A stretch of 52,551 nucleotides of DNA from Arthrobacter sp. (GTDB lineage Bacteria > Actinomycetota > Actinomycetes > Actinomycetales > Micrococcaceae), in the NCBI GenBank assembly GCA_036390955.1, contig DASWAW010000325.1, positions 1-52,551 of the forward strand, in the 5' to 3' direction. Within the stretch, counting starts at the first letter, position 1. Every line of letters starts with the position of its first letter. The notes below the pieces were generated by a model that was not told where the DNA came from, searched no databases, and saw only the letters and a program-made list of their open reading frames with translations. A program made the translations under genes and the position numbers. Positions 10,195 to 52,550 of this stretch are shown here, piece after piece.

Positions 10195-10217
10195 CTATGC
10201 GTAGACCTCACCGACGG
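10195..10217 (-). promoter_or_regulatory. Class A motif CCGTC-N11-CGCATAG
   Basis: CGCATA lies 9 nt before the ATG at 10186. Confidence 0.7.
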
Positions 10218-10261
10218 GGCGCCTGTACTGTCGCGAAAGGGGGCGCTAAGGCTACTTTGGA

Positions 10262-10285
10262 CCGTTCGCGAAGAATCTACGCATG
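10262..10285 (+). promoter_or_regulatory. Class B motif CCGTT-N13-CGCATG
   Basis: Upstream of the 10331 CDS. Confidence 0.55.
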
Positions 10286-10330
10286 CTCCATGACAGAGGC
10301 CACCACATCACGTACCAAGAGGATCTAAAC

Positions 10331-11227
10331 ATGGAAATCCGCCGCCGCCGCTCTTTCCTCACTGAACCAGGCGAAACGCTCCTGCTTTCCGACTCTGCCC
10401 TCGAATCCGCCGTGCGGCTTGCCGAGTGGCGCGAAGCGACCGGACTGGACACGTCGCGCATCGTTGCCGACGGCCTGACTGCCGTCCCGCTGCCGCTGTA
10501 CATGGCGACCCCTCCCGGCCCGCGCCAGTTCTCCGAGGTCAACCCCGCCATCATGTGGCACCCTCTGCTGTGGCTGCCGCCGCGCCTGTCCAACCGCTAC
10601 TCCGGGCTCCCGACCGGTGAGAACGGCGCCCCGGAGATCGAATCCAACGAACTCTGGTCCATCCGGATCGGCCTGGAACTGGCCATCTCTGGCCTGTACA
10701 ACGAGGACGAAGGCTGGCTGGACATCCTCGCCACCCTCGGCATCGACGTCGAAGACCCTTCCGATCTGGCCCGCATCGCCGAATGGCAGGCCGGCGCCCC
10801 GGACGAGATCCTGGACAACATCGACCTGGACTCCTACCTGCACTTGGAGGGGAACCCGAACTGGGCCCTGGAAAGCGCCCTTTCGTTGCTGGATCCGTTC
10901 ACCGAAGCCCAGTGGGCCCTGCGGGCCAACTCCCTCATCGAGATGATCCTCGAGGTCACCGACCCATCGGCGCCCACCGCCGCGCAGGACCTGCGCGACA
11001 CGATCCGGAACGCGGCAATCCTCGCCGGTGTCCAGCTCGCCGGCGTCTACGACGAAGAGGCCGATAGCTTCTGGTCCCGGATCGAGGCCGAAGCGTCCAC
11101 CGGGCAGTTCCCGAGCCTGGCCGCCTTCATGTCCGGCCCGGTCCTGGAAGCCAACTCCTGGCTGCACCGGGTCCGCGACACTTACTGGGGCACACTGGAC
11201 GAGCTCCAGACGCTGCAGACCGCCTAA
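10331..11227 (+). CDS. Hypothetical protein (acidic, Trp-rich)
   Basis: GC3-biased ORF; AGAGGA RBS before ATG 10331. Confidence 0.7.
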   Translation: MEIRRRRSFLTEPGETLLLSDSALESAVRLAEWREATGLDTSRIVADGLTAVPLPLYMATPPGPRQFSEVNPAIMWHPLLWLPPRLSNRYSGLPTGENGAPEIESNELWSIRIGLELAISGLYNEDEGWLDILATLGIDVEDPSDLARIAEWQAGAPDEILDNIDLDSYLHLEGNPNWALESALSLLDPFTEAQWALRANSLIEMILEVTDPSAPTAAQDLRDTIRNAAILAGVQLAGVYDEEADSFWSRIEAEASTGQFPSLAAFMSGPVLEANSWLHRVRDTYWGTLDELQTLQTA

Positions 11228-11230
11228 GGG

Positions 11231-12154
11231 ATGCTCGCCGTGCAGGAAACCTTCATTCCTGCCGGAGCGTGGCTGAAAGCAGATGGAACAGTCGACATAA
11301 CCGTCGGCGGCAAAGTGCTCGACGGTGGGTACGGCGTCAACATGCAGACCGCCATCCACGCGCTCCGGCGTTACGCGTCCCAGCACGGGCCGCTGCTGAT
11401 GACTACACTGCTGCCCGACGGCCGGTCCAACATGGATACTGTCCACCCGGACGGCACCGTCAAGAAGTACGACACTGCGCCGCACACGGTCCCCGCCCGC
11501 CCGCTCGGGCACGGGGCCGGAATCCACACTGAGCACCAGAACGGCTCTTCCCTGCCTCCTGTGCGGCAGAATCGTCCACTGGCACCGGCCGAGGGCCATG
11601 AATTCTTCAACTTTGGGCCAGCAGGGTCTCGCCCGCGACGGCAAATGCCGCCTGCAGAGGACATGGATTTCGGTCTCCCGCCGCGGTCACTGGCCCCGGC
11701 TGATGACGCGGACTTCTTCGGCCTGCCGCCATTGAAGGCCGATCATACGGTGCCCGGGGGTCACAACAGACCCGTCCGGGTGGATCCTTTCAGTGACCGG
11801 CCGGTGTTCCGCCCCACAGAGCACGCCCATGCCCCACGCCAGGACGGCCACATGACTCGGCCCCCGGACCGCGGCCTGGGCCTGCAGCGGAACCCAATAC
11901 TGCACCCGGTGGCGGTGACCCGGACAGAGGTCACCCCGGGGCGCCCGGCCCTGAGCGTGAAGGCTGTGGCCCTGGAACGACACCGGGCCGCGTCCCCACT
12001 GATGACCCTCGGCTTCGTCCTGGTGACCATGCTGCTCGCGGCTGCCCTGGTCATGTTCGGCCCCATGATCCTGCTGCACACCGGCGTCTGGGATCCGTTT
12101 CAGGCGTTGCACGGCGCGGCCGAGCCGGCCCGCCCGACGCCTTCGGCGCCCTAA
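11231..12154 (+). CDS. Hypothetical membrane protein (Pro-rich linker, C-terminal TM)
   Basis: ORF 3 nt downstream of the previous gene; hydrophobic C-terminal segment. Confidence 0.6.
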   Translation: MLAVQETFIPAGAWLKADGTVDITVGGKVLDGGYGVNMQTAIHALRRYASQHGPLLMTTLLPDGRSNMDTVHPDGTVKKYDTAPHTVPARPLGHGAGIHTEHQNGSSLPPVRQNRPLAPAEGHEFFNFGPAGSRPRRQMPPAEDMDFGLPPRSLAPADDADFFGLPPLKADHTVPGGHNRPVRVDPFSDRPVFRPTEHAHAPRQDGHMTRPPDRGLGLQRNPILHPVAVTRTEVTPGRPALSVKAVALERHRAASPLMTLGFVLVTMLLAAALVMFGPMILLHTGVWDPFQALHGAAEPARPTPSAP

Positions 12155-12175
12155 TGTCGAGCGGGGACGCCGCTG

Positions 12176-12184
12176 CCGCACACA
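12176..12184 (+). promoter_or_regulatory. Class C motif
   Basis: CGCACA lies 10 nt before ATG 12193. Confidence 0.6.
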
Positions 12185-12192
12185 TGCCGTTT

Positions 12193-12489
12193 ATGACCAC
12201 CAACGTGCAGCAGACCAGCGTTCTCGCCTACAAGAGCCTCACCCTGTCCGACCGGCAGACGGAGGTGCGCCGCGCGATCTCCTCGCTCGGCACCGCCTGC
12301 AACCAGCAGATCGCCGATTACCTGCACCTGCCTGTCAACCAGGTCACCGGCCGGGTCTTCGAACTGCGAGCCATGGGCGTCGTCATCTCATCCCACAAGG
12401 CCGTCTGGGCGCCGACCGGCAAGACCGTCATCTTCTGGCAGATTGCGCTCGGCACCCCGGCTGTCGCCACGGTGACCAGTCCCTCGTAG
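12193..12489 (+). CDS. Winged-HTH DNA-binding protein (phage-like)
   Basis: CNQQIADYLHLPVNQVTGRVFELRAMG HTH pattern. Confidence 0.65.
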   Translation: MTTNVQQTSVLAYKSLTLSDRQTEVRRAISSLGTACNQQIADYLHLPVNQVTGRVFELRAMGVVISSHKAVWAPTGKTVIFWQIALGTPAVATVTSPS

Positions 12490-12517
12490 CCTCGCCGGGT
12501 GAGAGCGGCCCGTCACG

Positions 12518-12526
12518 CCGCACACA
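12518..12526 (+). promoter_or_regulatory. Class C motif
   Basis: CGCACA lies 10 nt before ATG 12535. Confidence 0.55.
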
Positions 12527-12534
12527 TGAGCCCC

Positions 12535-12690
12535 ATGACTCCACACCCGCAGTTCCGCCCCGCGCGTGTCATTCCCGGCCCCGGCCCGGAGGACCACTAC
12601 GACTTCGAAGCGCGTCCCTTCACGACTGAACAGATGGATGAGCACAGCGACTGGCTGCTCTCATCGCCCGTCGGGTCCACCGGCGCATAG
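12535..12690 (+). CDS. Small hypothetical protein (51 aa)
   Basis: Short ORF supported mainly by motif spacing. Confidence 0.4.
   Translation: MTPHPQFRPARVIPGPGPEDHYDFEARPFTTEQMDEHSDWLLSSPVGSTGA
12668..12690 (+). promoter_or_regulatory. Class A motif upstream of dnaE
   Basis: CCGTC-N11-CGCATAG. Confidence 0.65.
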
Positions 12691-12771
12691 AACACACCAG
12701 AGGCACCGGCCGTAAGGCGCGGGCAGGGGTCCGCCGACCCCGTTTTCAGCACCACGGAAAGCAGCATCACT

Positions 12772-17043: not shown

Positions 17044-17074
17044 CCCTGGCGGCCGGGGAGGGCATTCCCGGCCG

Positions 17075-17083
17075 CCGCACACA
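17075..17083 (+). promoter_or_regulatory. Class C motif
   Basis: Upstream of the 17150 CDS; overlaps hairpin 17048..17076. Confidence 0.5.
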
Positions 17084-17149
17084 TGGGGTGAAGCCGGCAG
17101 AACACTGCCGGTAAAGCCCCGGCCGCGACGAGCGGCAGACAGGATCCCA

Positions 17150-17443
17150 GTGACCTCCCCCGCGAACAAGCCACAGCCCGCCGCCGACACGATGCTTGCA
17201 GCCCTCACAGTGCTGGAGCGCCTCGATTCCGGCGACTACCCCTCTGTGGACGTCCTCATGGACTCCATTGACACCCGCGAGTTGTCCATCGGCCTGGTCG
17301 ATGTCGCCCGCTTCATGGCTTCCATGCTCGCCAACGCAGGTCAGACCGATTCCCCGACCGTGTACGGCCACGTCCGCTCGACCATTCACGGGCTCGTCAG
17401 CGACGGCTCCTTCGGTGCCGGATCGTTCGAGCTCCCCGCCTGA
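17150..17443 (+). CDS. Hypothetical protein
   Basis: GTG start with AGGA RBS; codon bias. Confidence 0.55.
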   Translation: MTSPANKPQPAADTMLAALTVLERLDSGDYPSVDVLMDSIDTRELSIGLVDVARFMASMLANAGQTDSPTVYGHVRSTIHGLVSDGSFGAGSFELPA

Positions 17444-17505
17444 CCACCCAGCTTCCGCCCAGGCCGCTCCCCCGTTTAGACGGGTCAGGGCGGCCTTTCG
17501 CGTAC

Positions 17506-17663
17506 CTGCAGAAAACGACACCCGTCGGGACATGCGACGCATAGAAAGACCGAGGCCAAAAGCGATTGCGGCCCCGACCGTTCCACCTCGCGTCAACTGC
17601 AGAAAACGACACCCGTCGGGACATGCGACGCATAGAAAGACCGAGGCCAAAAGCGATTGCGGC
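17506..17663 (+). repeat. Two identical 67-bp direct repeats (17506..17572, 17597..17663), each containing a class A motif
   Basis: CTGCAGAAAACGACACCCGTCGGGACATGCGACGCATAGAAAGACCGAGGCCAAAAGCGATTGCGGC x2, 91-bp period. Confidence 0.9.
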
Positions 17664-17707
17664 GGCCTCACCCCGCAGCCCAGATGGGCCATACGAAAGG
17701 CATTACC

Positions 17708-18196: not shown

Positions 18197-18211
18197 GCCG
18201 TCCCCGCACCG

Positions 18212-18249
18212 ACAGGCCCCGTTCCACCTTCGGGTGGGGCGGGGCCTGT
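18212..18249 (+). terminator. Rho-independent terminator after ssb
   Basis: ACAGGCCCCG...CGGGGCCTGT followed by TTT. Confidence 0.7.
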
Positions 18250-18268
18250 TTTGTGCCGTCTACGCATG
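18246..18268 (+). promoter_or_regulatory. Class B motif (weak upstream box)
   Basis: TCTACGCATG upstream of the HNH gene. Confidence 0.45.
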
Positions 18269-27146: not shown

Positions 27147-28244
27147 TTAGGAGTTGTGCTTGTTGTTGGCGAAGGCGACCGCGGAGGCCCACATGATGTC
27201 GGCCTTCTCGGGCTTGTCGGCGCCGATGCGCTCGAGCAGGCCGATGACGCTTTCGCGCTGGTGGATGTCGATCGTGCCGAACGGTGCGAACAGGGCCTCG
27301 GTGGTGGGGCTGTCCTTGCCGTCTGACCAGGCCTTGCAGGCAGCCATGACGCCGCCCTCCTGGGCCTCCATGAGCTTGCGGATCTCGGTGACCTTGCGCT
27401 GGGAGATCGTGCCCGGCAGTGCCAGCGGAAGCTCGGCACGCTCGGCGATGGCGTTCCAGGCGTAGCGCTTGGCTTCGGCCTTGTTCGCTGCACCAGTGGT
27501 TTCCAGTGCCGTGAAGGCCCGGTCCATGTAGGAGTCCGGCTCGATGTAGTGGCCGGAGTTTTCCGGGTTCACCAGGCTCGCGCCGAGGGTGGATTCGACG
27601 CCACCGTCTTCACCGAAGCTGCGGTCCAGCGAGGTGTCCACGGTGTGCGGGGTGCGGAAATCCTTGGACGGCTTGTGGCGCGGGTCGTGCCACTCGTCGA
27701 GAACGATCTGTGCCACGGTGTCTTCCTCACGCTGGGTCAGCGAACGGCCGAGCAGGCCCTGTGCTTCATCGCGCTTGGCGACGAAGAGGCGGTAGGCACG
27801 GCGGTCTTCGGCGCGGAACTTGTTAGCCGTGGCCCGGACGGTGACGTTGGCAGTCACCGAGTTCACCAGTTGGCGGAAGTCCGTGATGGGACCACCCTTT
27901 TTGACGCGCTCCAGGATCTGGAGGATGGCTTCCTGGGCGATGTCGTCCACGTCTTTGTCGTTGGACTTGCCGGCCTGGTTGTAATACGCCTGGTGGTACA
28001 CAGCCGAGCTGTGGGCTACTTCGACGAGCCGCTCCGCCGAGGTGTACTTCGCCAGGAGGGAGTTCATGTCCGCGCCTATCAGGTCCTCGACCATGACGGA
28101 GCCTGCGTGCAGCTGGGTCTGACCCAGGACGACGTCGGATTCGGAGTGGCGGTTCGCGGCGAATTCGCCGCCCGAGGGCACGCCTGCCTCGACACGGTTC
28201 GGTGCGAAGGAGGTGCCGGCTGCGGAAGTTTTCGAGTTGCTCAT
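27147..28244 (-). CDS. Divergent sigma70-family-like protein
   Basis: DVDDIAQEAILQILE (region 2-like), LGRSLTQREE (region 3.1-like), SLDRSFGEDGGVESTLGASL (region 3.2-like). Confidence 0.6.
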   Translation of the reverse strand: MSNSKTSAAGTSFAPNRVEAGVPSGGEFAANRHSESDVVLGQTQLHAGSVMVEDLIGADMNSLLAKYTSAERLVEVAHSSAVYHQAYYNQAGKSNDKDVDDIAQEAILQILERVKKGGPITDFRQLVNSVTANVTVRATANKFRAEDRRAYRLFVAKRDEAQGLLGRSLTQREEDTVAQIVLDEWHDPRHKPSKDFRTPHTVDTSLDRSFGEDGGVESTLGASLVNPENSGHYIEPDSYMDRAFTALETTGAANKAEAKRYAWNAIAERAELPLALPGTISQRKVTEIRKLMEAQEGGVMAACKAWSDGKDSPTTEALFAPFGTIDIHQRESVIGLLERIGADKPEKADIMWASAVAFANNKHNS

Positions 28245-28251: not shown

Positions 28252-28260
28252 TGTGTGCGG
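28252..28260 (-). promoter_or_regulatory. Class C motif
   Basis: CGCACA lies 9 nt before ATG 28244. Confidence 0.6.
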
Positions 28261-28420
28261 CTGAATCAAAAAACGCGCAGCGGCCGCCGGGTCAGTTTCA
28301 GGCGGGCTCGATCAGGAGCTTTCCGCGGCAGCAGATGGCTGGATTTTTGGGGCTCGCCGAGGGCCGCCAGCCGGTCGGGGTGTCCCCAATCCTGGGGGCC
28401 GGTCGGGCCCCTTTCAGGGG

Positions 28421-28547
28421 TGGTCCTTTTGGGGTGGTCCACCCTGGTCCTTTTGGTGGTCCTTTTGCTGGTCCACAGGTGGTCCATCCCCGGTCCATGC
28501 GGTGGTCCTTTGAGTGGTCCATCGCTGGTCCTTTACTGTCGGGGACC
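28421..28547. repeat. Array of 10 GGTCC units (10-14 bp spacing) plus one GGACC
   Basis: GGTCC at 28422, 28436, 28446, 28458, 28470, 28481, 28492, 28504, 28516, 28527. Confidence 0.9.
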
Positions 28548-28605
28548 ACCCCTAGACTGGGCAGCCGACGGCCCTTCCGGTGGCCGGGGAGCAGGAAGGA
28601 CGGCA

Positions 28606-29346
28606 ATGAGCACACGTATCGAGCCCGACGGACCGGCGATGATGCTGCTGTCCCTGGGGCTGGTGGCGGTACTGGCGATCGCCAGTTTCACCCTCTCGTT
28701 CCTGGGTCTCATCCAAGCGGCCGTGTGGGCCGGGATCCCCGTTGAGCTCCGGTGGCTCGTGCCGGTCGTGGTGGACTCGACGATCCTCGTTTATGCCGTT
28801 GCGGCCAGCGTACAAAGGGCCAGAGGGGAATCGACGACGCTTTCCTGGGTCGCGGTCGGGTTCTTCACGGCGGTGTCGGTGAGCGCCAACGCAGCGCACG
28901 TCCTTGCCCCCGGCGGAGTCATGGCGGCGCTAGACGGGACGGTCATCTTCGGGGCGATCCTGGCGGCCATCATGCCGATCAGCCTGTTCTTCGCAACGGA
29001 GACGACAGTGAAGCTCGCAGTGGCCCCGGTGTATGGCTCGGTTGCGCAGCGGCGCCGGCGGGCAGCGAAGAATCTGGTCCACACGGGAGAAAAGGACCAA
29101 CAAAAGGACCAGTGGTCCTTTTCAAATGGACCACTAAAAGGACCAGCAAAAGGACCACTTGTGGACCACCAAAAGGACCACCTGCGGACCACCCTGAAAA
29201 CCCGTCCGGAAGTCGACCCGAAAACGATCCGGGAACTGGCCGATCAGGACCTGAGCCAACGGGCGATCGCGCAGCGGCTGGGGGTCTCCAAAACGACGGT
29301 GGCACGGGTGCTCTCAGGGGCTGCCGAGGCGGCTCCGGCGCGCTGA
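28606..29346 (+). CDS. DUF2637-like membrane protein with C-terminal HTH
   Basis: SFTLSF..L...WLVPVVVD...SANAAH four-TM pattern; LSQRAIAQRLGVSKTTVARVL HTH. Confidence 0.8.
   Translation: MSTRIEPDGPAMMLLSLGLVAVLAIASFTLSFLGLIQAAVWAGIPVELRWLVPVVVDSTILVYAVAASVQRARGESTTLSWVAVGFFTAVSVSANAAHVLAPGGVMAALDGTVIFGAILAAIMPISLFFATETTVKLAVAPVYGSVAQRRRRAAKNLVHTGEKDQQKDQWSFSNGPLKGPAKGPLVDHQKDHLRTTLKTRPEVDPKTIRELADQDLSQRAIAQRLGVSKTTVARVLSGAAEAAPAR
29076..29190. repeat. Intragenic array of 8 GGACC plus 2 GGTCC, inverted relative to 28421..28547
   Basis: GGACC at 29094, 29106, 29128, 29140, 29152, 29163, 29175, 29186. Confidence 0.9.
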
Positions 29347-30067: not shown

Positions 30068-33000
30068 TCATGCGGCCAGCGCGTAACCGCGGGTGTCGAG
30101 GATTTCCAGGACGATGTGCTCGATGATGTCGCCCAGGGACTTGAAGTTCTTCTCCATCTCGAGGTCTTCCTCGGTGATGGCTTCGTAGGCGTTCGCCTGT
30201 TCATTCAGGACCGAGGTCATGGTGGTGACGTTGTTGTCGGCGCCCGGCATAAGGACGTTCAGGTCCTTGGCCTTGTTCCGCAGGATCGCGCGCATGTGGG
30301 CGTCCAGGGTGTTGGTCGCCAGCAGGGTCGTGACCATGCAGATGTTCTCCTGGCCGATGCGGTTGCAGTTGTGGACGGCCGCCGATCCGACGACGTAAGA
30401 CTCGTCGCCTTCTACGGACAGGTCCCAGAGCCGCTCCTCGCGCCGAGCGTACCTAGAGGTGACCATAGAGACGCGCCTCCAAATCCAGGGACCTTCATGA
30501 GCGTCGTCCGTGTATTCAGTCACGTAGGAATCCCTCGCGGTCATTGCGTTGACTGTTGACGTTGCTTCCTTGAAGTGGCCTTCGATGGTCCTGGTCCCCG
30601 TGCGGTAACCGAGAGCGGCCGCAATGAGGCCTAGTTGCCCGCTCAGCGACTCCGACACGGTGGTCCACGACAGCACAACTTTTTCACCGTTGTCCGACAA
30701 TTTAGCGTGCCCGTCTCCGGCCATGTAGCCGAGGAATACCTGCTCAAGTTGTGGCTTGGACAGGTCAAATACCCATGCGGGGAAGCGCTTGTTCTGGGCA
30801 CGGTGGCCGAACATCTGTAGAAACCACGCTGCAAGGTCTTGGGAAAAGATCCGCATCTCGATGCCGTTGTGATTGTGCTTGTAGATCGTGAACTTGAAGC
30901 CGAACGTTCGCTGAAGGTATTCACCGTGGGCTCGGAGCACATGCTCCTCGTTCCGGTGCCCCGAGATGGAGACGAAAGCGCCCTTTGATTCATCGACGGT
31001 GGAGAATCCTTCCGCCACGTACAAGCCGCAGAACGACAAGAACTCTGGCGTCAGGTCAACCGTCGCCGGCATCGGATTGTATCGACCATTGGGCCTGCGC
31101 TCCGTCAATATGGGCAACGGAGTTTTGGCTCCGAAATCGAGACGGTGCTGACGCTTCAGCGCTGTGTAGTGCTCCTGGCACAGTCCGCGGGCAATAACGT
31201 TCTTTGATCCGCAGACCTTGCAGGAAGACCATGCCTTGAGCTCCGCGTCTGTCCAGCGGCGGCATGAGTCGGGAAAGACGACACTCTGAACGTCAAGGCC
31301 GCTGAGCCGCATTTTCGGCGTGGCCATACTGTCCCCGGGCAACACTGTTGACGCGAAGGCCCACTCCTCGATGCCATTGGCGCGACGGACCCATACCTCG
31401 TGATCGTGAGTTACTGCCAGGGGGTCCCGCTGGCCCATGAAGTTGACCTCGGTGATGACTTTCCGTGCACCTACGTTGTCGCGCGAGCCGCGAGACCAAA
31501 CGTCGGTAACAGGGCGCCAGTTGCCCTCGTGAGTGAGAACCGTGTCCCCGATGGAGATCGCCTCGATGGGAACGGGCCCGCGGTCAGTCTGGACAGGCTG
31601 CCCTTCGACCACGCACCGGTCCTCTGCTTGACTTATGTTCGCCGGCGTCCAGTCCGTTTCGATGAACAAAACGTCGGAGCTGGCCGTCAGGGTGATGCCG
31701 AAGCCGGCGGCGCCGATGGAGCAGAAGATGACACCGATCTCCCCGTTCTGGAGCCGGTCGGCGACGAGCTGGCGCTTGTGCTGGGCCACTCCCCCGTCAA
31801 TGAACCCGGTGTCGGCGATGCCGGCCTTTTCGACGGCTTCGACCAGGGCCTGCATGACGGGCTGGTTGTGGACCCAGACGGTGAGCGGCCGGGTGTAGAC
31901 CTTTTTGCCGTTGCGGATCTCGGTGGTTGCTTCCATCCAGTCGGAGATGATCTCGATGGCGGCCGGTACCTTGGCGACGCCGGCGGCGGAGCGCAGCGGG
32001 GTGATGAGGTCCACACGGGTCCGGGCGAACAGCTTGATCGCCTCGTTGTCGATCCGGGCGCCGAGCTCGCGCTGCTCGTCTATCCACTCCGTGACTTTCT
32101 CGTACAGGGTGTCGTGCGCGGCCTTGAAGCCCTTGGGGTCGATGTCGACATACCTGGTGGTGCGCAGCTTGGGCGGCAGCTGTTTGAGGACGTCGGCTTT
32201 GTTCCGACGCACCCAGCACTGGCGGGTGAGGGTCTGCTCCAGCTCGGGAAGCATCTTGCGGTTGGGCAGGAACGCACCGAAGTGGTTCTGGCTGGTGTAT
32301 CGCTCCATGAAGTTGGACGCACCGCCGAACACCGGATCCAGAAGGCCGCCGATGGCGAGCATGTTCGCGCCCTCGGCCGGGTTCTGCAGGAACGGGGTAC
32401 CTGTCATCGGCACGCACATCCCATTGATGGAGGATGCCAGGTTGCGGTTCGCGGTGGCGCGCTTCCCGGCCCAGGTCCGGGACCGGTGTACCTCATCGAA
32501 GAGGGCAACGTTCGGGTCCCAGGCGATCAGTTCGGCCAGGAGCTCGGGACGGGATCCGAGCAGGGAGTCGGCGACTACGATGACGCCGGCGTTCGGGAAC
32601 GGCGGAACCTTCTTGCCGGCCCGGATCGGGACAATGTAGTCCGGGAAGTCCGGCTTCTTAACAGCCTTCTTCGGCTTGGCTTTGGACTTGCGCGTGGTCG
32701 CGATCGGCACGACGACGTCGGTGACGACGGGCTGGATCCGCTTCAGGCCCGGGCCCAGACCGGCGTAGGTTTCCCGGCACCAGTTCTCCACGACCAGGGG
32801 CGGAACGACTATGACGGTGCGCCGGGCACGGACAATTGCTGCCGCCGCGAGGGCTTGCCGGGTCTTCCCCAGGCCCGGACTGTCGTTGAGGGCGCGGTGT
32901 CCGCCGGCGATGGCGTAGGCGCCGGCCAGCTGGAACGGGTACAGGGCCAGGCCGAACCATTTGGGCAGGTAGCCGGTGTGGGAGGCGACGATGTCGATGA

Positions 33001-33607
33001 GTTCCTGGGCGCGCGGGGACAGCTCGTGCTGGAAGTCCCCGTCGACGCCGGTGGAGCAGGCGAGCTCGCGGGCGGCGGCCCGGACGCTCTCGGGGATGTC
33101 TTCGGCCTGGCGGGACGCGACCGCATCGGCGATCATGGCGTCGTCCATCTGCATGCCCTTTTTGGGCTGGCCGTCGTTGGTGATCATGTCCGAGAGCTGG
33201 ACTTCGAAGCGCTGCAGGTTCTTGTCCCAGACGGCGCCGGGGCCCAGGATGGCGGCGAGCCGTTCGTAGCCTGCCATGCGGGGCCGGACGAAAACCATGT
33301 GCGGGAACTTGGCGGAGCGCTTCAGCATCGGACGCCACAGGGTTTCGAGGGAGTCCAGGCCGGCGAGGTCACCCTCCGCTTCGGAGAAGTCGACGGGAAT
33401 CCTGGCGGCGGCGAAGAACTTGTCCGGGTGGGTGCCGGTGCCGGTGATGTACCAGGTCTTCTCGGACCGGTCGAAGCGGCGGCCGGGCAGGCCCTTGACC
33501 CAGTCCTGCGCGGACTTGCCGTTGGGGAGGGTCGCACCCCAGCCGAATTCAAAGCGCAGTTCAGGGTTGCGGAACGTCCCGGTAAGGACGGCGGTGAGAG
33601 GGGCCAT
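30068..33607 (-). CDS. SNF2-family helicase containing an intein
   Basis: DSPGLGKT, DEVH, MTGTP, QAEDR|CNRIGQ motif VI split by the intein. Confidence 0.9.
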   Translation of the reverse strand: MAPLTAVLTGTFRNPELRFEFGWGATLPNGKSAQDWVKGLPGRRFDRSEKTWYITGTGTHPDKFFAAARIPVDFSEAEGDLAGLDSLETLWRPMLKRSAKFPHMVFVRPRMAGYERLAAILGPGAVWDKNLQRFEVQLSDMITNDGQPKKGMQMDDAMIADAVASRQAEDIPESVRAAARELACSTGVDGDFQHELSPRAQELIDIVASHTGYLPKWFGLALYPFQLAGAYAIAGGHRALNDSPGLGKTRQALAAAAIVRARRTVIVVPPLVVENWCRETYAGLGPGLKRIQPVVTDVVVPIATTRKSKAKPKKAVKKPDFPDYIVPIRAGKKVPPFPNAGVIVVADSLLGSRPELLAELIAWDPNVALFDEVHRSRTWAGKRATANRNLASSINGMCVPMTGTPFLQNPAEGANMLAIGGLLDPVFGGASNFMERYTSQNHFGAFLPNRKMLPELEQTLTRQCWVRRNKADVLKQLPPKLRTTRYVDIDPKGFKAAHDTLYEKVTEWIDEQRELGARIDNEAIKLFARTRVDLITPLRSAAGVAKVPAAIEIISDWMEATTEIRNGKKVYTRPLTVWVHNQPVMQALVEAVEKAGIADTGFIDGGVAQHKRQLVADRLQNGEIGVIFCSIGAAGFGITLTASSDVLFIETDWTPANISQAEDRCVVEGQPVQTDRGPVPIEAISIGDTVLTHEGNWRPVTDVWSRGSRDNVGARKVITEVNFMGQRDPLAVTHDHEVWVRRANGIEEWAFASTVLPGDSMATPKMRLSGLDVQSVVFPDSCRRWTDAELKAWSSCKVCGSKNVIARGLCQEHYTALKRQHRLDFGAKTPLPILTERRPNGRYNPMPATVDLTPEFLSFCGLYVAEGFSTVDESKGAFVSISGHRNEEHVLRAHGEYLQRTFGFKFTIYKHNHNGIEMRIFSQDLAAWFLQMFGHRAQNKRFPAWVFDLSKPQLEQVFLGYMAGDGHAKLSDNGEKVVLSWTTVSESLSGQLGLIAAALGYRTGTRTIEGHFKEATSTVNAMTARDSYVTEYTDDAHEGPWIWRRVSMVTSRYARREERLWDLSVEGDESYVVGSAAVHNCNRIGQENICMVTTLLATNTLDAHMRAILRNKAKDLNVLMPGADNNVTTMTSVLNEQANAYEAITEEDLEMEKNFKSLGDIIEHIVLEILDTRGYALAA
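30368..31615 (-). mobile_element. Intein (416 aa) with LAGLIDADG homing endonuclease
   Basis: Starts CVVEGQPV; THDH block B; GLYVAEG and LGYMAGDG; ends VHN followed by Cys; lower GC. Confidence 0.92.
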
Positions 33608-33614: not shown

Positions 33615-33637
33615 CTATGCGCCGGAGGCCCCGACGG
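33615..33637 (-). promoter_or_regulatory. Class A motif
   Basis: CGCATA lies 8 nt before ATG 33607. Confidence 0.7.
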
Positions 33638-38526: not shown

Positions 38527-38535
38527 TGTGTGCGG
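38527..38535 (-). promoter_or_regulatory. Class C motif
   Basis: CGCACA lies 10 nt before ATG 38518. Confidence 0.6.
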
Positions 38536-39698: not shown

Positions 39699-39721
39699 CT
39701 ATGCGCCTAAACCAGCGACGG
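39699..39721 (-). promoter_or_regulatory. Class A motif
   Basis: CGCATA lies 9 nt before ATG 39690. Confidence 0.7.
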
Positions 39722-41069: not shown

Positions 41070-41092
41070 CTATGCGGGCCATGTCCTGACGG
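41070..41092 (-). promoter_or_regulatory. Class A motif
   Basis: CGCATA lies 9 nt before GTG 41061. Confidence 0.7.
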
Positions 41093-43873: not shown

Positions 43874-43896
43874 CTATGCGGTCGAGGTCCCCACGG
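43874..43896 (-). promoter_or_regulatory. Class A motif (CCGTG)
   Basis: CGCATA lies 9 nt before ATG 43865. Confidence 0.7.
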
Positions 43897-44005: not shown

Positions 44006-44449
44006 CTACGCAGTCTTGGGTTTGCGCAGCTTCAGGAAGACTGAGCCGGCAGGGGACGCGGTGGTCTTGTCCGCCTGGTCCGGCGGGGCTTTCTTGGTGC
44101 GGCGGAAACGGTTGATGATGCCGCCGTCGAGTTCGGTGACCCATTGGCGGTGCAGTGCCCACGCTTCGCCGACGGTCAGGACCAGCGGGACGGAGTCCGA
44201 GTAGGTGGTCAGGAAGAGCAGTCCAAGGGCGGCCCAGCGGTACCAGCGTCGGTAGCCGCGCGGGAGCAGGATCATGGTGGCCAGGGCCGGGAGGCCGAGC
44301 AGGACGGGGAACAGCCAGCCGACCGTGTCGGGACTGAACGGCACGGCCATGACGGTCTGGATGTGGGTAGCGGAGACGGCGATGACAACGGCCCAGCCGA
44401 AGGGCTGTTTCCAGTTGAAGGAACGGATGCGTCCCAGGATGGTTTTCAT
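44006..44449 (-). CDS. Hypothetical membrane protein
   Basis: About three TM segments; ATGA overlap with the upstream gene. Confidence 0.6.
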   Translation of the reverse strand: MKTILGRIRSFNWKQPFGWAVVIAVSATHIQTVMAVPFSPDTVGWLFPVLLGLPALATMILLPRGYRRWYRWAALGLLFLTTYSDSVPLVLTVGEAWALHRQWVTELDGGIINRFRRTKKAPPDQADKTTASPAGSVFLKLRKPKTA

Positions 44450-45621
44450 GCGGCAGGGGCCTTTACTTCAACGTCGGTGAGGTTGCGGATCAGCTGATCC
44501 AGCTGGGCGTACATGGCGTGTTCGGTCAGGCCGAGGCGCTGGCCCTTGTGGGCGAGGGCGCGGGCGAACACGTCCGGGGCTTTCATGACCGCGATGCGGC
44601 GGCCGGCGATGCGTTCGGCCCGGTATTCGGCGCCGGTGGTGTCGAAGGAGGAGTACGCCTCGAATTCCAGGGCGATGAACGCCTCGCAGACGTCTTCGGC
44701 GACACGGGACCAGTTGCGTTCCGGGCCCATGGCACGGACGGCGCCGCGGAAGGAGCGCAGCACGGTGCGGGAGGGCCGGACCCGGTCGGTGAGGACTGAT
44801 TCAACCAGGGCGGACGCGACCATCGGGGCGGCGGTGGCGATGGCTTCGAGGTTGTTGTAGGCGAACTCGTCCCAGAGGGTGAGGAAACCGGGGTCCACCG
44901 GGTCGGTGACCGGGTCCCCGGAAATGATCCGGTACATCTCGGTGACGGAGCGGTGCGCGATGGACGAGTCCAGGGCCAGCAGTGCTGAGAGCCGGCGGCG
45001 TTCGTGCAGGCGGGGCCGGTCCAGTGCCGGGATGCCGTAGGCGTGGGTCAGGGATGCGGCCTGGGCTTCGAGCCGGGAGTTGTCGCGCAGGTGGCGGCTG
45101 CGGGCGCGGAGCCAGTCGGCGGCAACCAGCATGCGCTGGCCGGAGTCGGAGGCTTCAATGACCTCGGGGGTGTCATCTTCAGACCGGGTGTGGAAGACGT
45201 AGCTGGCATGGGTGCGGTGCCGGACCTCGTCGTTTTCCATCGTCTTGATCGGTTCGACGAGTTCGTACTTGCCGTTCCGGGTCCGGAGGTTGCGTTCGAT
45301 GGATTTTCGGGCCGCGCGGAGCATCTGCCGGGCCCAGCCGGTCGCCGAGGCGCCGTCCAGTCCGCGGTCCAGGTCGTAGCCGCCGGAGGTTTCCTGCATC
45401 ATCTTGGTGACGACGAGTTCTTCCATTTCGGCGGTGATGTCCAGGAGCTGCTGCCGGTCAATGAGCGGCTTCTCCCCCGCTACTGTGGCAGCGATGCCGG
45501 AGCGGTGAAGGGCTTCTGCGAGAGCCTTGCGGGTGTCGAACGGGGAGAGGTCTCCGTCAGCGAATTGCTGAAGGACCGCCCGGCATTCTGTATCGGAGTC
45601 GGAGGTCTGAAGTGTTTGCAC
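44446..45621 (-). CDS. Hypothetical protein, possible second divergent sigma-like factor
   Basis: YDLDRG...SATGWARQMLR resembles sigma region 2.3 (FDPxRG..F.T.A.WWIR); GTG start. Confidence 0.5.
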   Translation of the reverse strand: MQTLQTSDSDTECRAVLQQFADGDLSPFDTRKALAEALHRSGIAATVAGEKPLIDRQQLLDITAEMEELVVTKMMQETSGGYDLDRGLDGASATGWARQMLRAARKSIERNLRTRNGKYELVEPIKTMENDEVRHRTHASYVFHTRSEDDTPEVIEASDSGQRMLVAADWLRARSRHLRDNSRLEAQAASLTHAYGIPALDRPRLHERRRLSALLALDSSIAHRSVTEMYRIISGDPVTDPVDPGFLTLWDEFAYNNLEAIATAAPMVASALVESVLTDRVRPSRTVLRSFRGAVRAMGPERNWSRVAEDVCEAFIALEFEAYSSFDTTGAEYRAERIAGRRIAVMKAPDVFARALAHKGQRLGLTEHAMYAQLDQLIRNLTDVEVKAPAA

Positions 45622-45629
45622 GAACCTTA

Positions 45630-45638
45630 TGTGTGCGG
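45630..45638 (-). promoter_or_regulatory. Class C motif
   Basis: CGCACA lies 10 nt before GTG 45621. Confidence 0.6.
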
Positions 45639-45668
45639 CCCCGGACGTTAATGTGCACAAGGAACATG

Positions 45669-45684
45669 TGTGAACTGACTCACA
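45669..45684. promoter_or_regulatory. CRP/GlxR-type site
   Basis: Perfect TGTGA-actgac-TCACA in an intergenic region. Confidence 0.55.
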
Positions 45685-45744
45685 TCCAGTCCGGGCGCGG
45701 GAAAGCCCGGCGTGTCGTCTCAACACGCCGGGCGGACCCGGTTT

Positions 45745-48210: not shown

Positions 48211-48212
48211 GA

Positions 48213-49361: not shown

Positions 49362-49381
49362 GATTGCCTTCCGGGGTGATG

Positions 49382-49993
49382 CTAGGAGCGTTTGATGAGT
49401 TCGCCGGCTGCAGCCAGCTCGGCTTTGGACTCATCGGTCAGGGAAGCGGTGGCCTTGACGATGGCGCCGGATGCCTTGACGATGGCGGCCGGCGGGGTCG
49501 GGGCGCCGACTGCGTCCAGGGCGAACAGCAGGGTCCAGACGTCTTTGAGGGCGCCGCGTTCCAGGGAGGCTGCGATGATGCCGGCTTCCCAGGAGGCGTC
49601 GGACTTGAGCGCGGTGGCGATCTCGTCCAGGTCAGCGGCGGCGGTCTGGGAGGTCCGCGGTGCGGTCATGATTGCGGTGGCCAGGTCGACCGGGTCCGGG
49701 GAGGATCCGACGAGGGTGGCGGCCAGCACGCGGGTGCCTTCGCCGGCTTCGAGGACCTCGACGGTCTTCGCGGCGGCGCGGCGGATCAGGGCCCGGTTGG
49801 ACTTGGCCTGGTTCTTGGCCTTGGCTGCCGGATCCGAGGAAAGGACGGTGTCCTCGGCGGAGGTGTCAGCTTCCTCTTCGTCGGTCTCGGCGTCCTCCAG
49901 ATCCTGGTCGTCCAGGTCGGGAAGTTCGGTCTCTGCTTCGGCGGTGTCGCCGTGCGAGGGGAAGGTCAGGTTCTCGTACGTTGCTGTGCTCAC
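49382..49993 (-). CDS. Hypothetical protein (acidic N-terminus)
   Basis: GAAGGAG RBS, GTG start. Confidence 0.65.
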   Translation of the reverse strand: MSTATYENLTFPSHGDTAEAETELPDLDDQDLEDAETDEEEADTSAEDTVLSSDPAAKAKNQAKSNRALIRRAAAKTVEVLEAGEGTRVLAATLVGSSPDPVDLATAIMTAPRTSQTAAADLDEIATALKSDASWEAGIIAASLERGALKDVWTLLFALDAVGAPTPPAAIVKASGAIVKATASLTDESKAELAAAGELIKRS

Positions 49994-50029
49994 GGGTGTC
50001 GTGCTCCTTCTGGTTGGTCCACCGGGGAA

Positions 50030-50053
50030 CATGCGTAGACCTTGGCGGAACGG
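50030..50053 (-). promoter_or_regulatory. Class B motif CCGTT-N13-CGCATG
   Basis: Upstream of operon 49993->45745. Confidence 0.6.
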
Positions 50054-50059
50054 GCAAAA

Positions 50060-50101
50060 CGACAGAGCCCCGCCACCGGGTAGGTGACAGGGGCTCTGTC
50101 G
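50060..50101 (-). terminator. Rho-independent terminator
   Basis: CGACAGAGCCCC...GGGGCTCTGTCG with a T-tract on the minus strand. Confidence 0.7.
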
Positions 50102-50118
50102 TCGCAGGACGGGGCTGG

Positions 50119-50646
50119 TTAGCCCTTCATGTCCTTGGCGGCACGTGCCTTACCGGCGGCCAGGTCGTCCTCGGTGATCGAGGTGTCCTCGCCGAGGTCC
50201 GAGACGTGCTGGAGGATGCGGAACTTCCGGGTCGGGTCGTCGCGGCCGGTCTGCATTTCCACATACACGAGGACGCGGTGGCCGACCATGTTCTCGCGCA
50301 GGTCCTTGGCGAACGCGGTGACGGAGTCGTTGCCTTCGACGATCTCGGTGCGGACGGTTTCGATGCCTTCGGCGTTGAGCTTCGTCGGGGACGTCTTGAG
50401 GACCACGAAGCCGCGCTTGGAGGACTTCTCCTTGCCGACGTACAGCACGGTGCCGATGAACTTCTTCGCGTCGTCGAGCATGTCGATCGTCTTGGCGATG
50501 TTCGAGCCGTCCGCCAGCAGCGTGGTGAGGTGCTTGGCGTTGGCGATCAGCTTCATCTCCCATTCGGCTGCGCTGTCGCCGACCGCGCCGGTCATGCCGA
50601 CGGCGCCAAGGATGATGTTATTGCGGGTCAGGGTGTCAAGAGCCAA
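50119..50646 (-). CDS. Hypothetical protein (possible OB-fold)
   Basis: Strong codon bias; AGGAAA before the TTG start. Confidence 0.65.
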   Translation of the reverse strand: MALDTLTRNNIILGAVGMTGAVGDSAAEWEMKLIANAKHLTTLLADGSNIAKTIDMLDDAKKFIGTVLYVGKEKSSKRGFVVLKTSPTKLNAEGIETVRTEIVEGNDSVTAFAKDLRENMVGHRVLVYVEMQTGRDDPTRKFRILQHVSDLGEDTSITEDDLAAGKARAAKDMKG

Positions 50647-50699
50647 GGGAATTTCCTGCTTTCATATGTGGGTCATACGGGGTGGTGGGGTGGAACGGA

Positions 50700-52505
50700 C
50701 TAGGCGGCGTCTTCGTCCTCGTCAGGGAAGTCGTGGTCGCTGAGACCGGCGGGAGCCGGGGCGGGCTTGATCGTGGTCACGGTCGCGGCGACCGGGGCCT
50801 CGACGACTGCGGGGACCTCGGCTACCGGGGCGGGAGCTTCGACGACTGCTTCGGCAACAGCCTTGGCAGGAGCCTTGGCGCGGGCCTTGGGGGCAGCCTT
50901 GACCGTTTCGGCGGACTCGGTGGCTGTGATTCCGGCCAGTGCCGCCCACGGGCGCTCGGGAGCCTCGTCGTGGTAGGTGGAGAGGGCAACGGACGTGATG
51001 GCCTTGCACCGGCGCAGAGCCGCGCTGGCCCATTCGTCCCACGCGGCTTCGTCCTGGCCGAACGGCAGGGGAAGCGTGTCGATCACGGAGCGCAGGGCAC
51101 CGCGCATCCGGGTGTTGGCGCCATCCATCAGGGACCTGGACCCGGTCCAGTGGAACTGGGCGTCAGAGACGATGGAAAGGAACGTGAAGGCCAGGGCCTT
51201 GACGGTCGAACCCTTAAGTTCGATCCCGGCCTTGGAGAGTACGTCAACGGCCAGGCTGGCGTTGCCAATGGCGGCAATGGACGCGAACGAGTTGGGGTTC
51301 AACTCGCCGTCGGCGGTTTCGATCCAAACCTTGTCCTCGGTGATTTTCGGCATATCTTCCTCATCGGAGTCGTTTTTCGGGTTCTCCCCGCTGACATTCA
51401 TGTGTGCGGCAAGCTCGCTGGCCCTCTCCACCAGCGCGAGGTCTTCGGCCGGGATTTTTGACAGGTCCGGGGCGAAGAGAATGAGGTTCCCGTCGCTGTC
51501 CACGGAGTCATCCGGAACCGGCTCGGGAGCAGCCGCGGCGCCGGGGCGCAGGGACGGGATTCCCAGGTCGGTGGCGGAGAGCAGGCCGTCGATCTTGCCT
51601 TCCTTGCCCTCGGCCTTGGCGACCGGGCAGGAGTTCACGAGCGGGCACCAGCCGCACAGGGCGGAAACCTTCGTGGGGAACTCAGCGTTCTTCATGTACC
51701 GGTTGTGCCGGTCCCAGGAGAGCTTGAACGTCTTCAGGGTCTTGGCCATGGCGGACTCGGACAGGTCCACATCGCGCTTCTCACCGAACTTCGTGTAGAG
51801 CACGGTGGCGCCGACAGCCTTCTCGCCGGTCTTCGCTTCCAGGGCCGCAGCGTAGATCCTCAGCTGGTCCCCGTGGTCGTCGCCGTAGCGCAGGCTGTAC
51901 TTCGACGGGACCTTACCCGTCTTAAAATCTTCAGCTATCAGGCCGTATTTCTGAGTGATCGCACCAGTGCCTTCCTGGATCCGGTCGATGAATCCGTTGA
52001 TCGGGACACCGTTGAGGAACAGTCCGTCGATCTGCGTTTCGCGGCCCCACACGTTGATGGATTTCGGGTCCTCGATCGTCCACAGGCCCTCGTAGGAGGT
52101 GCGGACATCGGCGATCCAGCGGTAGCGGTTGATCCGCACGGCGGCGCGTACAGCGTCGTCAGCGTTCGGGTCATCGGCCCAGAGCTTGTCGGCGTGGCGT
52201 TCGACGATGCTGGCGGCGGTGCGCATGGTCCGCATTTCGACGGCAAATTCACGGACGTCGAACAGGTCTTCCAGGACCGCGTGGCCGGAGGTTCCCAGGG
52301 GCGCCGGCGCGAACGGGTCTTCCTCTTCGGAGCGCAGCAGGCGCTCCCCTACCCAGCGCGCGGCGCACGACTGCATGGACTTGGACGTGGACGGCGACAG
52401 TGCGGCACGCCTCAGCTTGTTTTCGACGAGCCCGTCGCCGGTGACGACGAGCGTCTTGCCGTCCCAGGCGAGCTTGTCGCGGAGCAGTGGCGTGTGATTG
52501 GTCAT
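50700..52505 (-). CDS. RecB/PD-(D/E)XK exonuclease-family protein with an extra C-terminal domain
   Basis: LSPS...C, GTSGH.VLE, GFIDRI, EDFKTG, QLRIY, LCGWCP...CP. Confidence 0.85.
   Translation of the reverse strand: MTNHTPLLRDKLAWDGKTLVVTGDGLVENKLRRAALSPSTSKSMQSCAARWVGERLLRSEEEDPFAPAPLGTSGHAVLEDLFDVREFAVEMRTMRTAASIVERHADKLWADDPNADDAVRAAVRINRYRWIADVRTSYEGLWTIEDPKSINVWGRETQIDGLFLNGVPINGFIDRIQEGTGAITQKYGLIAEDFKTGKVPSKYSLRYGDDHGDQLRIYAAALEAKTGEKAVGATVLYTKFGEKRDVDLSESAMAKTLKTFKLSWDRHNRYMKNAEFPTKVSALCGWCPLVNSCPVAKAEGKEGKIDGLLSATDLGIPSLRPGAAAAPEPVPDDSVDSDGNLILFAPDLSKIPAEDLALVERASELAAHMNVSGENPKNDSDEEDMPKITEDKVWIETADGELNPNSFASIAAIGNASLAVDVLSKAGIELKGSTVKALAFTFLSIVSDAQFHWTGSRSLMDGANTRMRGALRSVIDTLPLPFGQDEAAWDEWASAALRRCKAITSVALSTYHDEAPERPWAALAGITATESAETVKAAPKARAKAPAKAVAEAVVEAPAPVAEVPAVVEAPVAATVTTIKPAPAPAGLSDHDFPDEDEDAA
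51401..51409 (-). promoter_or_regulatory. Class C motif inside the CDS, upstream of in-frame ATG 51353
   Basis: CCGCACACA followed by GAGGAAGAT-ATG. Confidence 0.5.
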
Positions 52506-52512
52506 GTACTTT

Positions 52513-52550
52513 CTATGCGTCCAAGGCGACCACGGGTGTCGTTTTTTGCA
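52513..52550 (-). promoter_or_regulatory. Extended class A motif
   Basis: TGCAAAAAACGACACCCGTG-N11-CGCATAGAAAG; CGCATA lies 8 nt before ATG 52505. Confidence 0.75.

What the first reader, a model, noticed from the sequence alone, without database searches (positions are those of the whole stretch)
10195..52535. Class A motif CCGT[CG]-N11-CGCATAG marks DNA-metabolism genes with invariant spacing
Seen: nine copies, all with exactly 11 nt spacer, at 10195 (resolvase-like), 12668 (dnaE), 17522 and 17613 (ssb), 33615 (SNF2), 39699 (MTase), 41070 (HA repeats), 43874 (dinG) and 52513 (RecB-like). The spacer sequence varies while both boxes are conserved. Inference: a bipartite promoter for a replication/recombination regulon, with an unusually short spacer.
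Basis: partly seen in the sequence, partly recalled or inferred. Interest (0 to 1): 0.85.

Follow-up and report, generated by a model that had tools for sequence, protein, structure and literature searches.

The report
Megaplasmid's private promoter and sigma factors
The repeated motif is confined to a family of giant actinobacterial plasmids, where it sits just ahead of DNA-replication, nucleotide-supply and flagellar genes, and it is likely a private promoter read by an unannotated, plasmid-encoded protein predicted to be a sigma factor, which would let the plasmid run its own gene programme inside its host.

Summary
Confirmed: nine exact copies, none expected by chance; two come from one tandem duplication. 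The window belongs to a ~450 kb Arthrobacter-group conjugative megaplasmid. Four complete relatives carry 16-21 copies each; 60 related genomes stay at control level. A start codon often follows CGCATAG by 7-8 nt, the geometry of a leaderless -10 box, with CCGTC at about -30 to -26. Targets go beyond DNA metabolism: nrdI, nrdF, thyA, a ParA-like operon and plasmid-borne fliA, flhA, flgB. A second motif class (CCGCACACAT) exists. Two unannotated proteins have sigma-70 architecture: sigmaX (window 27147-28244) and sigmaY (279 aa, adjoining contig). SigmaY's operon carries the motif. The -10 box persists where FliA, the RpoD-like sigma or sigmaX is not found, including chromosomal flagellar islands that kept sigmaY; the upstream box drifts between lineages. 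SigmaY is the likeliest reader, but two constant companions (Z and W) cannot be excluded. No transcription data were available. Nearest precedent: Bacillus pBS32 SigN. New variant of a known kind.

The parts
10195..10217 (-). Class A site; ATG 8 nt after it, 183-aa conserved ORF of unknown family
   Evidence: orthologue in pACHL01 has the site at 7 nt
12668..12690 (+). Class A site 81 nt before dnaE (12772)
   Evidence: same 81-nt distance in pACHL01 and pPA-B-2242
17522..17544 (+). Class A site, first unit of a 91-bp tandem duplication before ssb
17613..17635 (+). Class A site, second unit, before ssb
33615..33637 (-). Class A site; ATG at 7 nt, SNF2 helicase with intein/LAGLIDADG
39699..39721 (-). 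Class A site; ATG at 8 nt, N6/N4 DNA methyltransferase (374 aa)
41070..41092 (-). Class A site; GTG at 8 nt, HA-repeat protein (298 aa)
43874..43896 (-). Class A site; ATG at 8 nt, DinG-type helicase (750 aa)
52513..52535 (-). Class A site; ATG at 7 nt, PD-(D/E)XK nuclease (601 aa). Contig C629 overlaps here and carries sigmaY at C629:3889-4728(-), about 3.7 kb beyond the window end
27147..28244 (-). sigmaX: unannotated 365-aa sigma70-like protein (regions 2 and 3, altered region 4 plus extra C-terminal helices), carrying the shared N-terminal tag
28252..28259 (-). Class B-type box (CGCACACA) heading sigmaX
44446..45621 (-). W: conserved 391-aa protein that travels with sigmaY; weak, unproven resemblance to sigma region 2
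45630..45637 (-). Class B box heading W
12177..12184 (+). Class B box before a 98-aa ORF (one of 12 CCGCACACA copies in the window)
12519..12526 (+). Class B box before a 51-aa ORF upstream of dnaE
38527..38534 (-). Class B box before the 1022-aa DUF4379/helicase ORF

Best explanation
The motif recurs only on this megaplasmid family and is likely a private promoter, likely read by host RNA polymerase loaded with the plasmid's 279-residue protein sigmaY, which is predicted to be a divergent sigma-70 factor. Inferred layout: C-A-T-A-G-(A/G) is the -10 hexamer (-12 to -7) with an extended CG in front, which would put the start site on the start codon of about half of the genes (leaderless) and ahead of 30-170 nt leaders in the rest. 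CCGTC(GG) at about -30 to -26 would be held by sigmaY's region-4 helix-turn-helix. SigmaY's own operon carries the box, so it would amplify itself and switch on replication, recombination, nucleotide-supply, partition and early flagellar genes, acting as a flagellar master regulator above the plasmid's FliA. A sister class (CCGCACACAT, 100 or more sites) would be read by sigmaX and/or W. Shown: motif, positions, distribution, gene content, co-occurrence. Predicted: sigma folds. My odds: promoter 0.9, plasmid-encoded reader 0.85, sigmaY as the sigma 0.65-0.7.
For: Confinement: 23 of 24 copies lie on 51 plasmid-like contigs (453 kb), 1 on the other 3.36 Mb, on C535, which also has a class B box. 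Counts of 18, 21, 16, 19 in four complete plasmids, reversed control 0; 0-4 per genome in 60 relatives against 0-5 for the control; 15 of 17 on two contigs of A. terrae. Spacer: 18 at 11 vs 6 over the 12 other spacers in pACHL01, 22 vs 1 in pPA-B-2242. Start geometry: in Curtobacterium pS16, of 154 CGCATAG, 53 have a start at 7 nt and 21 at 8 nt; 0 and 0 of 63 in 1.62 Mb of control contigs. Annotated starts at 7-9 nt for 6 of 9 pACHL01 and 5 of 11 pPA sites examined. SigmaY: Sigma70_r3 over cut-off (27.8 vs 25.3 bits), r4_2 E 1e-3; all 49 Foldseek rows shown are sigma-70 chains, best E 8e-4; HHalign probability 92% over 217 columns; present in all 8 related megaplasmids. Elimination: the motif stays without FliA in pACHL01 and pYJN5-1; GCATAG stays without an RpoD-like sigma in pS16. 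In genus g137 sigmaX is not found in 9 of 9 genomes, yet GCATAG+7+ATG heads the Z-sigmaY operon in 9 of 10 loci and GCATAG precedes flhA, fliM and flgB in both chromosomal flagellar clusters read. The box lies directly on sigmaY in Sinomonas and G404. The upstream box drifts while GCATAG stays: CTGTC in Tersicoccus (3 sites), ACTG in Aeromicrobium (5 of 6), CnGC in pS16 (109 sites).
Against: No transcript, start site or binding was observed. W (14 of the 15 sigmaY genomes) and Z (40 distinct homologues, upstream of sigmaY in the loci read) travel with sigmaY, so co-occurrence cannot single it out. SigmaY has no Pfam region-2 hit; its N-terminus alone did not match my sigma-2 profile (probability 0.7%) and matched only sigmaX's (93%); Foldseek TM-scores are 0.2-0.3. 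Some sigmaY loci show no leaderless GCATAG: 129 kb of redundant JAAB contigs, G395, G338, and the short loci of G528, G640, G700. A residue-to-base code (R250 with C) failed: L156 lacks the arginine and keeps CCGTG. A crude intergenic test put 8 of 23 -10 boxes inside long frames, against 70% coding. The lineages compared are related, not independent, and the g137 upstream box was defined after seeing the sites.
Confidence: 0.62

Rival explanations
1. Composite reader: a plasmid sigma melts the shared CGCA(T/C)A core, while the CCGTC box is bound by a separate plasmid adaptor (Z, 357 aa, or W), as PafBC does at -26 or T4 MotA at -30; or W itself is the class A sigma in a cross-activating loop with sigmaY.
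For: The box position and its GTCgg core resemble PafBC's tGTCgg-N10-tA (PMC8635444 passages). Classes A and B share a -10 core but differ upstream. Z and W co-occur with sigmaY. W has a region-2-like pattern and an ESM Atlas neighbour named sigma-70 factor at 0.95. In g137 the clearest class B site is W's own, which fits a loop.
Against: SigmaY already has an intact region-4 HTH. Z shows no sigma similarity (probability 1%). W gave no sigma hit in Pfam, PDB sequences or HHalign (best 7%). No WYL protein in 5 of 5 plasmids.
Confidence: 0.2
2. SigmaX, the sigma-like gene inside the window, reads class A.
For: Present in all 8 megaplasmids; sigma-like by HHalign (92%), by Pfam region 2 in 25 of 48 homologues at E<=0.1 and by Foldseek (45 of 47 rows, none at E<=0.001).
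Against: Not found in 9 of 9 g137 genomes that keep GCATAG sites. Its own gene carries a class B-type box, start at 9 nt, in most relatives read.
Confidence: 0.07
3. The motif is read by known machinery: host SigA with PafBC, the plasmid's FliA, or the plasmid's RpoD-like sigma.
For: The GTCgg core is PafBC-like; the motif precedes flagellar genes; RpoD-like sigmas occur on 4 of 5 plasmids.
Against: 0 of 61 sites have TANNNT in the TAG register. True PafBC-type sites exist separately, 12 off-plasmid and 3 on it. FliA is not found on two plasmids with 16-18 sites, an RpoD-like sigma not on pS16. The RpoD-like proteins keep canonical RQAITRG/RERIRQIE-type segments (canonical form recalled).
Confidence: 0.04
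4. Not a promoter: an operator of a plasmid repressor, a translation signal or a structural DNA element.
For: pMP7017 has a plasmid-specific 34-bp motif read as a factor binding site over a canonical -10 (PMC10832533 passages). Here there are no RNA data.
Against: The motif is not palindromic and folds no better than shuffles (-4.59 vs -4.52 kcal/mol). It has a fixed orientation and a fixed distance to start codons, also occurs 46-174 nt upstream, and no canonical -10 lies under it.
Confidence: 0.07

Closest known systems
SigN (ZpdN) of Bacillus subtilis plasmid pBS32 (PMC6751061, passages read)
   Same: Plasmid-encoded divergent sigma; regulon essentially confined to the plasmid; autoactivation; short spacer (14 nt to the -10 hexamer in the two table rows I counted, 13 here).
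   Different: Other boxes and phylum; one sigma against two or three here; SigN is LexA-repressed and lethal. No leaderless geometry or flagellar targets in the passages seen. Homology of sigmaY to SigN was not tested.
FliA/WhiG (sigma-28) promoters (PMC4183435, table rows)
   Same: An extended upstream box, 11 nt, then an extended -10 box with GC before the melted A; a flagellar link; sigmaX and sigmaY align full length to a profile headed by the plasmid's FliA.
   Different: Other sequences; class A lies upstream of fliA, flgB and flhA (one tier above FliA) and persists on plasmids where FliA is not found.
PafBC sigma adaptation (PMC8635444, passages read)
   Same: GTCgg element near -26, fixed short spacer, DNA-metabolism targets, actinobacterial host.
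   Different: PafBC needs a SigA TANNNT box; class A has none, its GTC is one base further upstream, and no WYL gene was found on 5 plasmids.
Bifidobacterium megaplasmid pMP7017 34-bp motif (PMC10832533, passages read)
   Same: A plasmid-specific motif heading replication and defence genes of an actinobacterial conjugative megaplasmid, absent from chromosomes.
   Different: It overlaps a canonical TATACT -10 and is read as a factor site; no plasmid sigma is proposed in the passages seen.
T4 middle/late transcription (MotA-AsiA, gp55); recalled, MotA/AsiA also mentioned in PMC8635444
   Same: A mobile element redirects host RNA polymerase with its own promoter classes.
   Different: Here a plasmid, with full-length sigma-like proteins; no phage record matched sigmaX.

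Membership tests
Sigma-70 family (sigmaY, C629:3889-4728) | Region 2 (core binding, -10 melting) | tested here: inconclusive
   No PF04542 hit; N-terminus vs my sigma-2 profile 0.7%, vs sigmaX N-terminus 93%; the full-length alignment covers it.
Sigma-70 family (sigmaY, C629:3889-4728) | Region 3 | tested here: met
   PF04539 27.8 bits, cut-off 25.3; below cut-off in the two orthologues scanned.
Sigma-70 family (sigmaY, C629:3889-4728) | Region 4 helix-turn-helix | tested here: met
   HTH_11 over cut-off; Sigma70_r4_2 E 1e-3, below cut-off; aligned.
Sigma-70 family (sigmaY, C629:3889-4728) | Binds core RNA polymerase and directs initiation | not testable with these tools
   Needs in vitro transcription.
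Sigma-70 family (sigmaX, window 27147-28244) | Region 2 | tested here: met
   HHalign 94%; PF04542 in 25 of 48 homologues at E<=0.1, best 7e-5, none in the window protein itself; VIA Z 7.5 to sigma-2 domains, within the range of chance for that tool.
Sigma-70 family (sigmaX, window 27147-28244) | Canonical region 4 | tested here: inconclusive
   Aligned by HHalign but no Pfam r4 hit; about 70 extra C-terminal residues.
Sigma-70 family (W, window 44446-45621) | Region 2-like domain | tested here: inconclusive
   Atlas neighbour at 0.95; Pfam, PDB and HHalign blank or weak.
PafBC (RecA-NDp) promoter | SigA-type TANNNT 10 nt after tGTCgg | tested here: not met
   0 of 61 sites have TANNNT in the TAG register; -10 is CATAG.
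FliA/WhiG promoter | Depends on a FliA-type sigma; GCCGATAA-type -10 | tested here: not met
   16-18 sites on two plasmids where FliA is not found.
SigN-type plasmid sigma system | Plasmid-restricted regulon with the site on the sigma's own operon | tested here: met
   (by sequence only).
SigN-type plasmid sigma system | Homology to SigN; LexA control | not tested
   No comparison run.
pACHL01-like megaplasmid | Shared backbone order (Tad pilus, dnaE, ssb, CHAP, helicases, VirB4-like ATPase) | tested here: met
   67% of the window aligns to pPA-B-2242.

The most novel reading that the evidence does not exclude
These megaplasmids run a phage-like transcription cascade of their own, with two or three new sigma families. 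SigmaY (class A) drives replication, nucleotide supply and a plasmid-borne flagellum. SigmaX and/or W (class B) drive about 100 small genes, dozens of which, like sigmaX itself, share an N-terminal tag that could export them into a recipient during mating to start the cascade. One host genus has kept the Z-sigmaY-W module in its chromosome as master regulator of a flagellar cluster taken from such an element.
Probability: 0.3. Interest if true: 0.92.

Novelty: new variant of a known kind. Interest (0 to 1): 0.78.

Why it matters
It gives named, testable sigma-promoter pairs in proteins that databases call 'hypothetical' or 'HTH domain', in sequenced, cultured strains (pACHL01 in P. chlorophenolicus A6). 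It would show a conjugative plasmid running a multi-class transcription programme apart from its host. It offers a candidate for the top regulator of flagellar genes in these actinobacteria and a route by which motility spreads. It would also supply an orthogonal promoter/sigma set for actinobacterial engineering and a natural case of -35 recognition at short spacing.

Tried and rejected
First idea, that the sigma next to a motif copy on C570 reads it: that gene is FliA in a plasmid-borne flagellar cluster, not found on two motif-rich plasmids. Helicase-sigma fusion and other RpoD-like sigmas: canonical recognition segments, not found on pS16. SigmaX as reader: weakened by g137. One-residue/one-base code for the upstream box: refuted by L156, and G404 does not fit either. 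Z as a third sigma: HHalign 1%; Atlas gave nothing usable. W and sigmaX as paralogues: not significant. Hairpin reading: no better than shuffles. A stricter composite pattern found nothing in genome contigs. SigmaX: no phage or viral-contig relative; the PDB sequence search gave one weak unrelated hit. Expression: no RNA holder listed, which is no evidence either way. A complex prediction of W with the RNA polymerase clamp helices was not obtained, so whether W binds core stays open. Literature: eight searches; in the listings and four papers read in passages I saw no description of this motif or these proteins. Subscription journals and supplements were not seen and may bear on the novelty claim.
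Full report
1. Observation. The pattern CCGTS-N11-CGCATAG matches nine times at the stated places; 100 shuffles give none. With two mismatches the count is 17 against 11.0 expected, so the set is sharp. In the whole assembly (3.81 Mb, 662 contigs, window = contig C325) spacer 11 gives 24 copies on 11 contigs; the other nine spacers tried give 4 in all. One of the 24 is the window's last site repeated on overlapping contig C629. The two ssb copies are one 91-bp tandem duplication.

2. What the DNA is. The window encodes a Tad pilus, dnaE, ssb, a CHAP hydrolase, helicases, a methyltransferase and a VirB4-like ATPase. Its DnaE is 81-57% identical to that of five 375-440 kb plasmids of Pseudarthrobacter, Paenarthrobacter and Arthrobacter and 43-45% to three 546-608 kb Curtobacterium plasmids, with shared gene order. 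51 contigs (453 kb) of the assembly align to two of these plasmids and hold 23 of the 24 copies. The four Micrococcaceae plasmids searched have 18, 21, 16 and 19 copies, pS16 has 1, reversed controls 0. Sixty related genomes have 0-4 against 0-5 for the control.

3. Anatomy. A start codon follows CGCATAG at 7-8 nt for 6 of 9 window sites, and at 7-9 nt for 6 of 9 pACHL01 and 5 of 11 pPA-B-2242 sites that I checked against annotation (of 18 and 21); the rest lie 46-174 nt upstream, with 81 nt before dnaE in all three. If the start codon is +1 (leaderless messages with a -10 hexamer 6-7 nt upstream are common in actinobacteria; recalled), CATAG(A/G) is -12 to -7 with the usual A at -11, and CCGTC falls at -30 to -26 (inference). 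The alternative register on TAG gives no T at -7 in 61 of 61 sites. In pS16 the -10 box is plentiful (154 copies in 451 kb read, 74 with a start at 7-8 nt; 0 of 63 in control contigs) while the upstream box has become CnGC. Tersicoccus has CTGTC, Aeromicrobium ACTG, Sinomonas still CCGTC. A crude test put 8 of 23 boxes inside long frames against 70% coding; some are upstream extensions of their own gene.

4. Targets. Outside the window the motif heads nrdI, nrdF, thyA, a metallophosphoesterase, a ParA-like operon, a 1062-aa protein, fliA and flhA, and with one mismatch flgB and a deoxynucleotide kinase. The flagellar cluster is plasmid-borne in pPA-B-2242, and contigs C570 and C631 align to it over 94% and 89%.

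5. A second class. (G/T)CCGCACACA(T), start codon 8-10 nt after GCACAC, with a looser GG(G/T)GAG-like box upstream, heads 97 frames in pACHL01 and 73 in pPA-B-2242 by my filter. The window has 12 CCGCACACA copies. In Tersicoccus all 81 CCGCACACAT copies lie on the one 263-kb contig that holds both sigma-like genes; in the Sinomonas and Aeromicrobium genomes there are only 6 and 4, not clustered at the element.

6. Candidate readers. FliA occurs on three of five plasmids and is not found on pACHL01 or pYJN5-1; RpoD-like sigmas occur on four and not on pS16. Weak hits in those searches led to two unannotated proteins found in all eight megaplasmids. SigmaX (window 27147-28244) belongs to a family of 527 clusters at 50% identity; 25 of 48 homologues hit Sigma70_r2 weakly and 45 of 47 Foldseek rows are sigma chains, none significant alone. 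SigmaY (C629:3889-4728) passes the Sigma70_r3 cut-off and has a region-4 HTH; all 49 Foldseek rows are sigma chains. Both align full length to a 13-sequence sigma profile that I built, at 92%. SigmaY's region 2 is not recognised alone.

7. Which reads class A. SigmaY lies in an operon headed by a class A site in this assembly, pACHL01 and pPA-B-2242, and has the box directly upstream in Sinomonas and G404. SigmaX is headed by a class B-type box in most relatives read. In one draw of 400 genomes of the family, sigmaY is in 15, sigmaX in 5 (all with sigmaY) and W in 15 (14 shared with sigmaY). Nine genomes of genus g137 have sigmaY and W, and sigmaX was not found in any; GCATAG+7+ATG heads the Z-sigmaY operon in 9 of 10 loci. 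In the two read in depth the module sits beside a flagellar cluster with none of eight plasmid backbone genes nearby. GCATAG precedes flhA, fliM and flgB in both, and fliD and flgK in one. A GAC(C/G/T)GCC-type upstream box, defined after the fact, marks 4 and 3 sense sites (plus one antisense hit) and none of 33 and 30 GCATAG outside the cluster. Only sigmaY and its companions Z and W are common to all these settings. SigmaY is the one with sigma architecture; Z is not sigma-like and W is unresolved. Against: several distant sigmaY loci show no such site, and my residue-base code failed. These lineages are related, so the pattern is not a statistical test.

8. Comparison. It works like Bacillus SigN: plasmid sigma, plasmid regulon, autoactivation, short spacer (PMC6751061, passages). 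Its spacing recalls FliA (PMC4183435, table rows) and PafBC (PMC8635444, passages), but it fails both membership tests. The pMP7017 motif (PMC10832533, passages) overlaps a canonical -10. Eight literature searches showed no description of this motif or these proteins; only listings and those passages were seen, no supplements. An earlier AI note on another genome (e1-5753074) proposes a similar private promoter code; I saw only its few lines and do not count it as support.

9. Verdict. A real, plasmid-specific bipartite motif, very likely a promoter, most likely read by sigmaY. No RNA evidence could be obtained. New variant of a known kind; interest 0.78.

Noticed in passing
window 28169-28202 (-), N-terminus of sigmaX; two more window ORFs; pACHL01; pPA-B-2242: A shared N-terminal peptide (R-x-P-x-G-x-P-x-G-G-Q/E-F-A ... 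H-x-E) on otherwise unrelated proteins: 46 pattern hits in pACHL01, 35-36 in pPA-B-2242, 5 in pS16, 3 in the window. 25 of 46 and 24 of 35 have CGCACAC within 150 nt upstream; 0 and 1 have GCATAG. Possible export or targeting tag; unexplained.
   Followed up: partly
window 12177, 12519, 17076 (+); 1437, 7714, 28252, 30011, 34023, 38527, 41588, 45630, 51401 (-): Class B motif CCGCACACA, 12 copies in the window; 135 (G/T)CCGCACACA on plasmid-like contigs against 12 elsewhere.
   Followed up: yes
L006 (C570), L020-L021 (C631), L015: A flagellar gene cluster with its own FliA is plasmid-borne in pPA-B-2242 and matches these contigs; FliA was not found on pACHL01 or pYJN5-1.
   Followed up: partly
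G627:C9:2137000-2172000; G598:C1:202000-234000: The Z-sigmaY-W module sits in long contigs beside a flagellar cluster with no plasmid backbone nearby; it looks like a captured motility island.
   Followed up: partly
L019:7131-9878 (-) (C621); L014:12205-15177 (-): SF2 helicase + RpoD-like sigma-70 + HA-domain fusion of 915-990 aa; in pPA-B-2242 the RpoD-like sigma lacks the helicase.
   Followed up: partly
window 28537-28558 (+): A host PafBC-type site (TGTCGG-N10-TAGACT) before the DUF2637-HTH gene, divergent from sigmaX: a possible DNA-damage input.
   Followed up: no
window 28340-28530 and 29060-29200: Many short GGACCAC/TGGTCC repeats in and around the DUF2637-HTH gene, possibly operator- or iteron-like (seen).
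   Followed up: no
window 30068-33607 (-): The SNF2 helicase holds a Hint domain and a LAGLIDADG endonuclease (intein).
   Followed up: no
L114, L115 (Curtobacterium plasmids): A WhiB-family gene lies in the ParA-Z-sigmaY operon; these plasmids have a second sigmaY-like match and short proteins resembling only its C-terminal HTH part.
   Followed up: no
L106, L107, L113 (Aeromicrobium chromosome, 2.93-2.99 Mb): An apparently integrated relative with two sigmaX paralogues and one sigmaY.
   Followed up: partly
P0098, P0135, P0145, P0152, P0172, P0187, P0193: Distant sigmaX relatives match the profile in three stretches, best in the C-terminal domain, which may be repeated.
   Followed up: no
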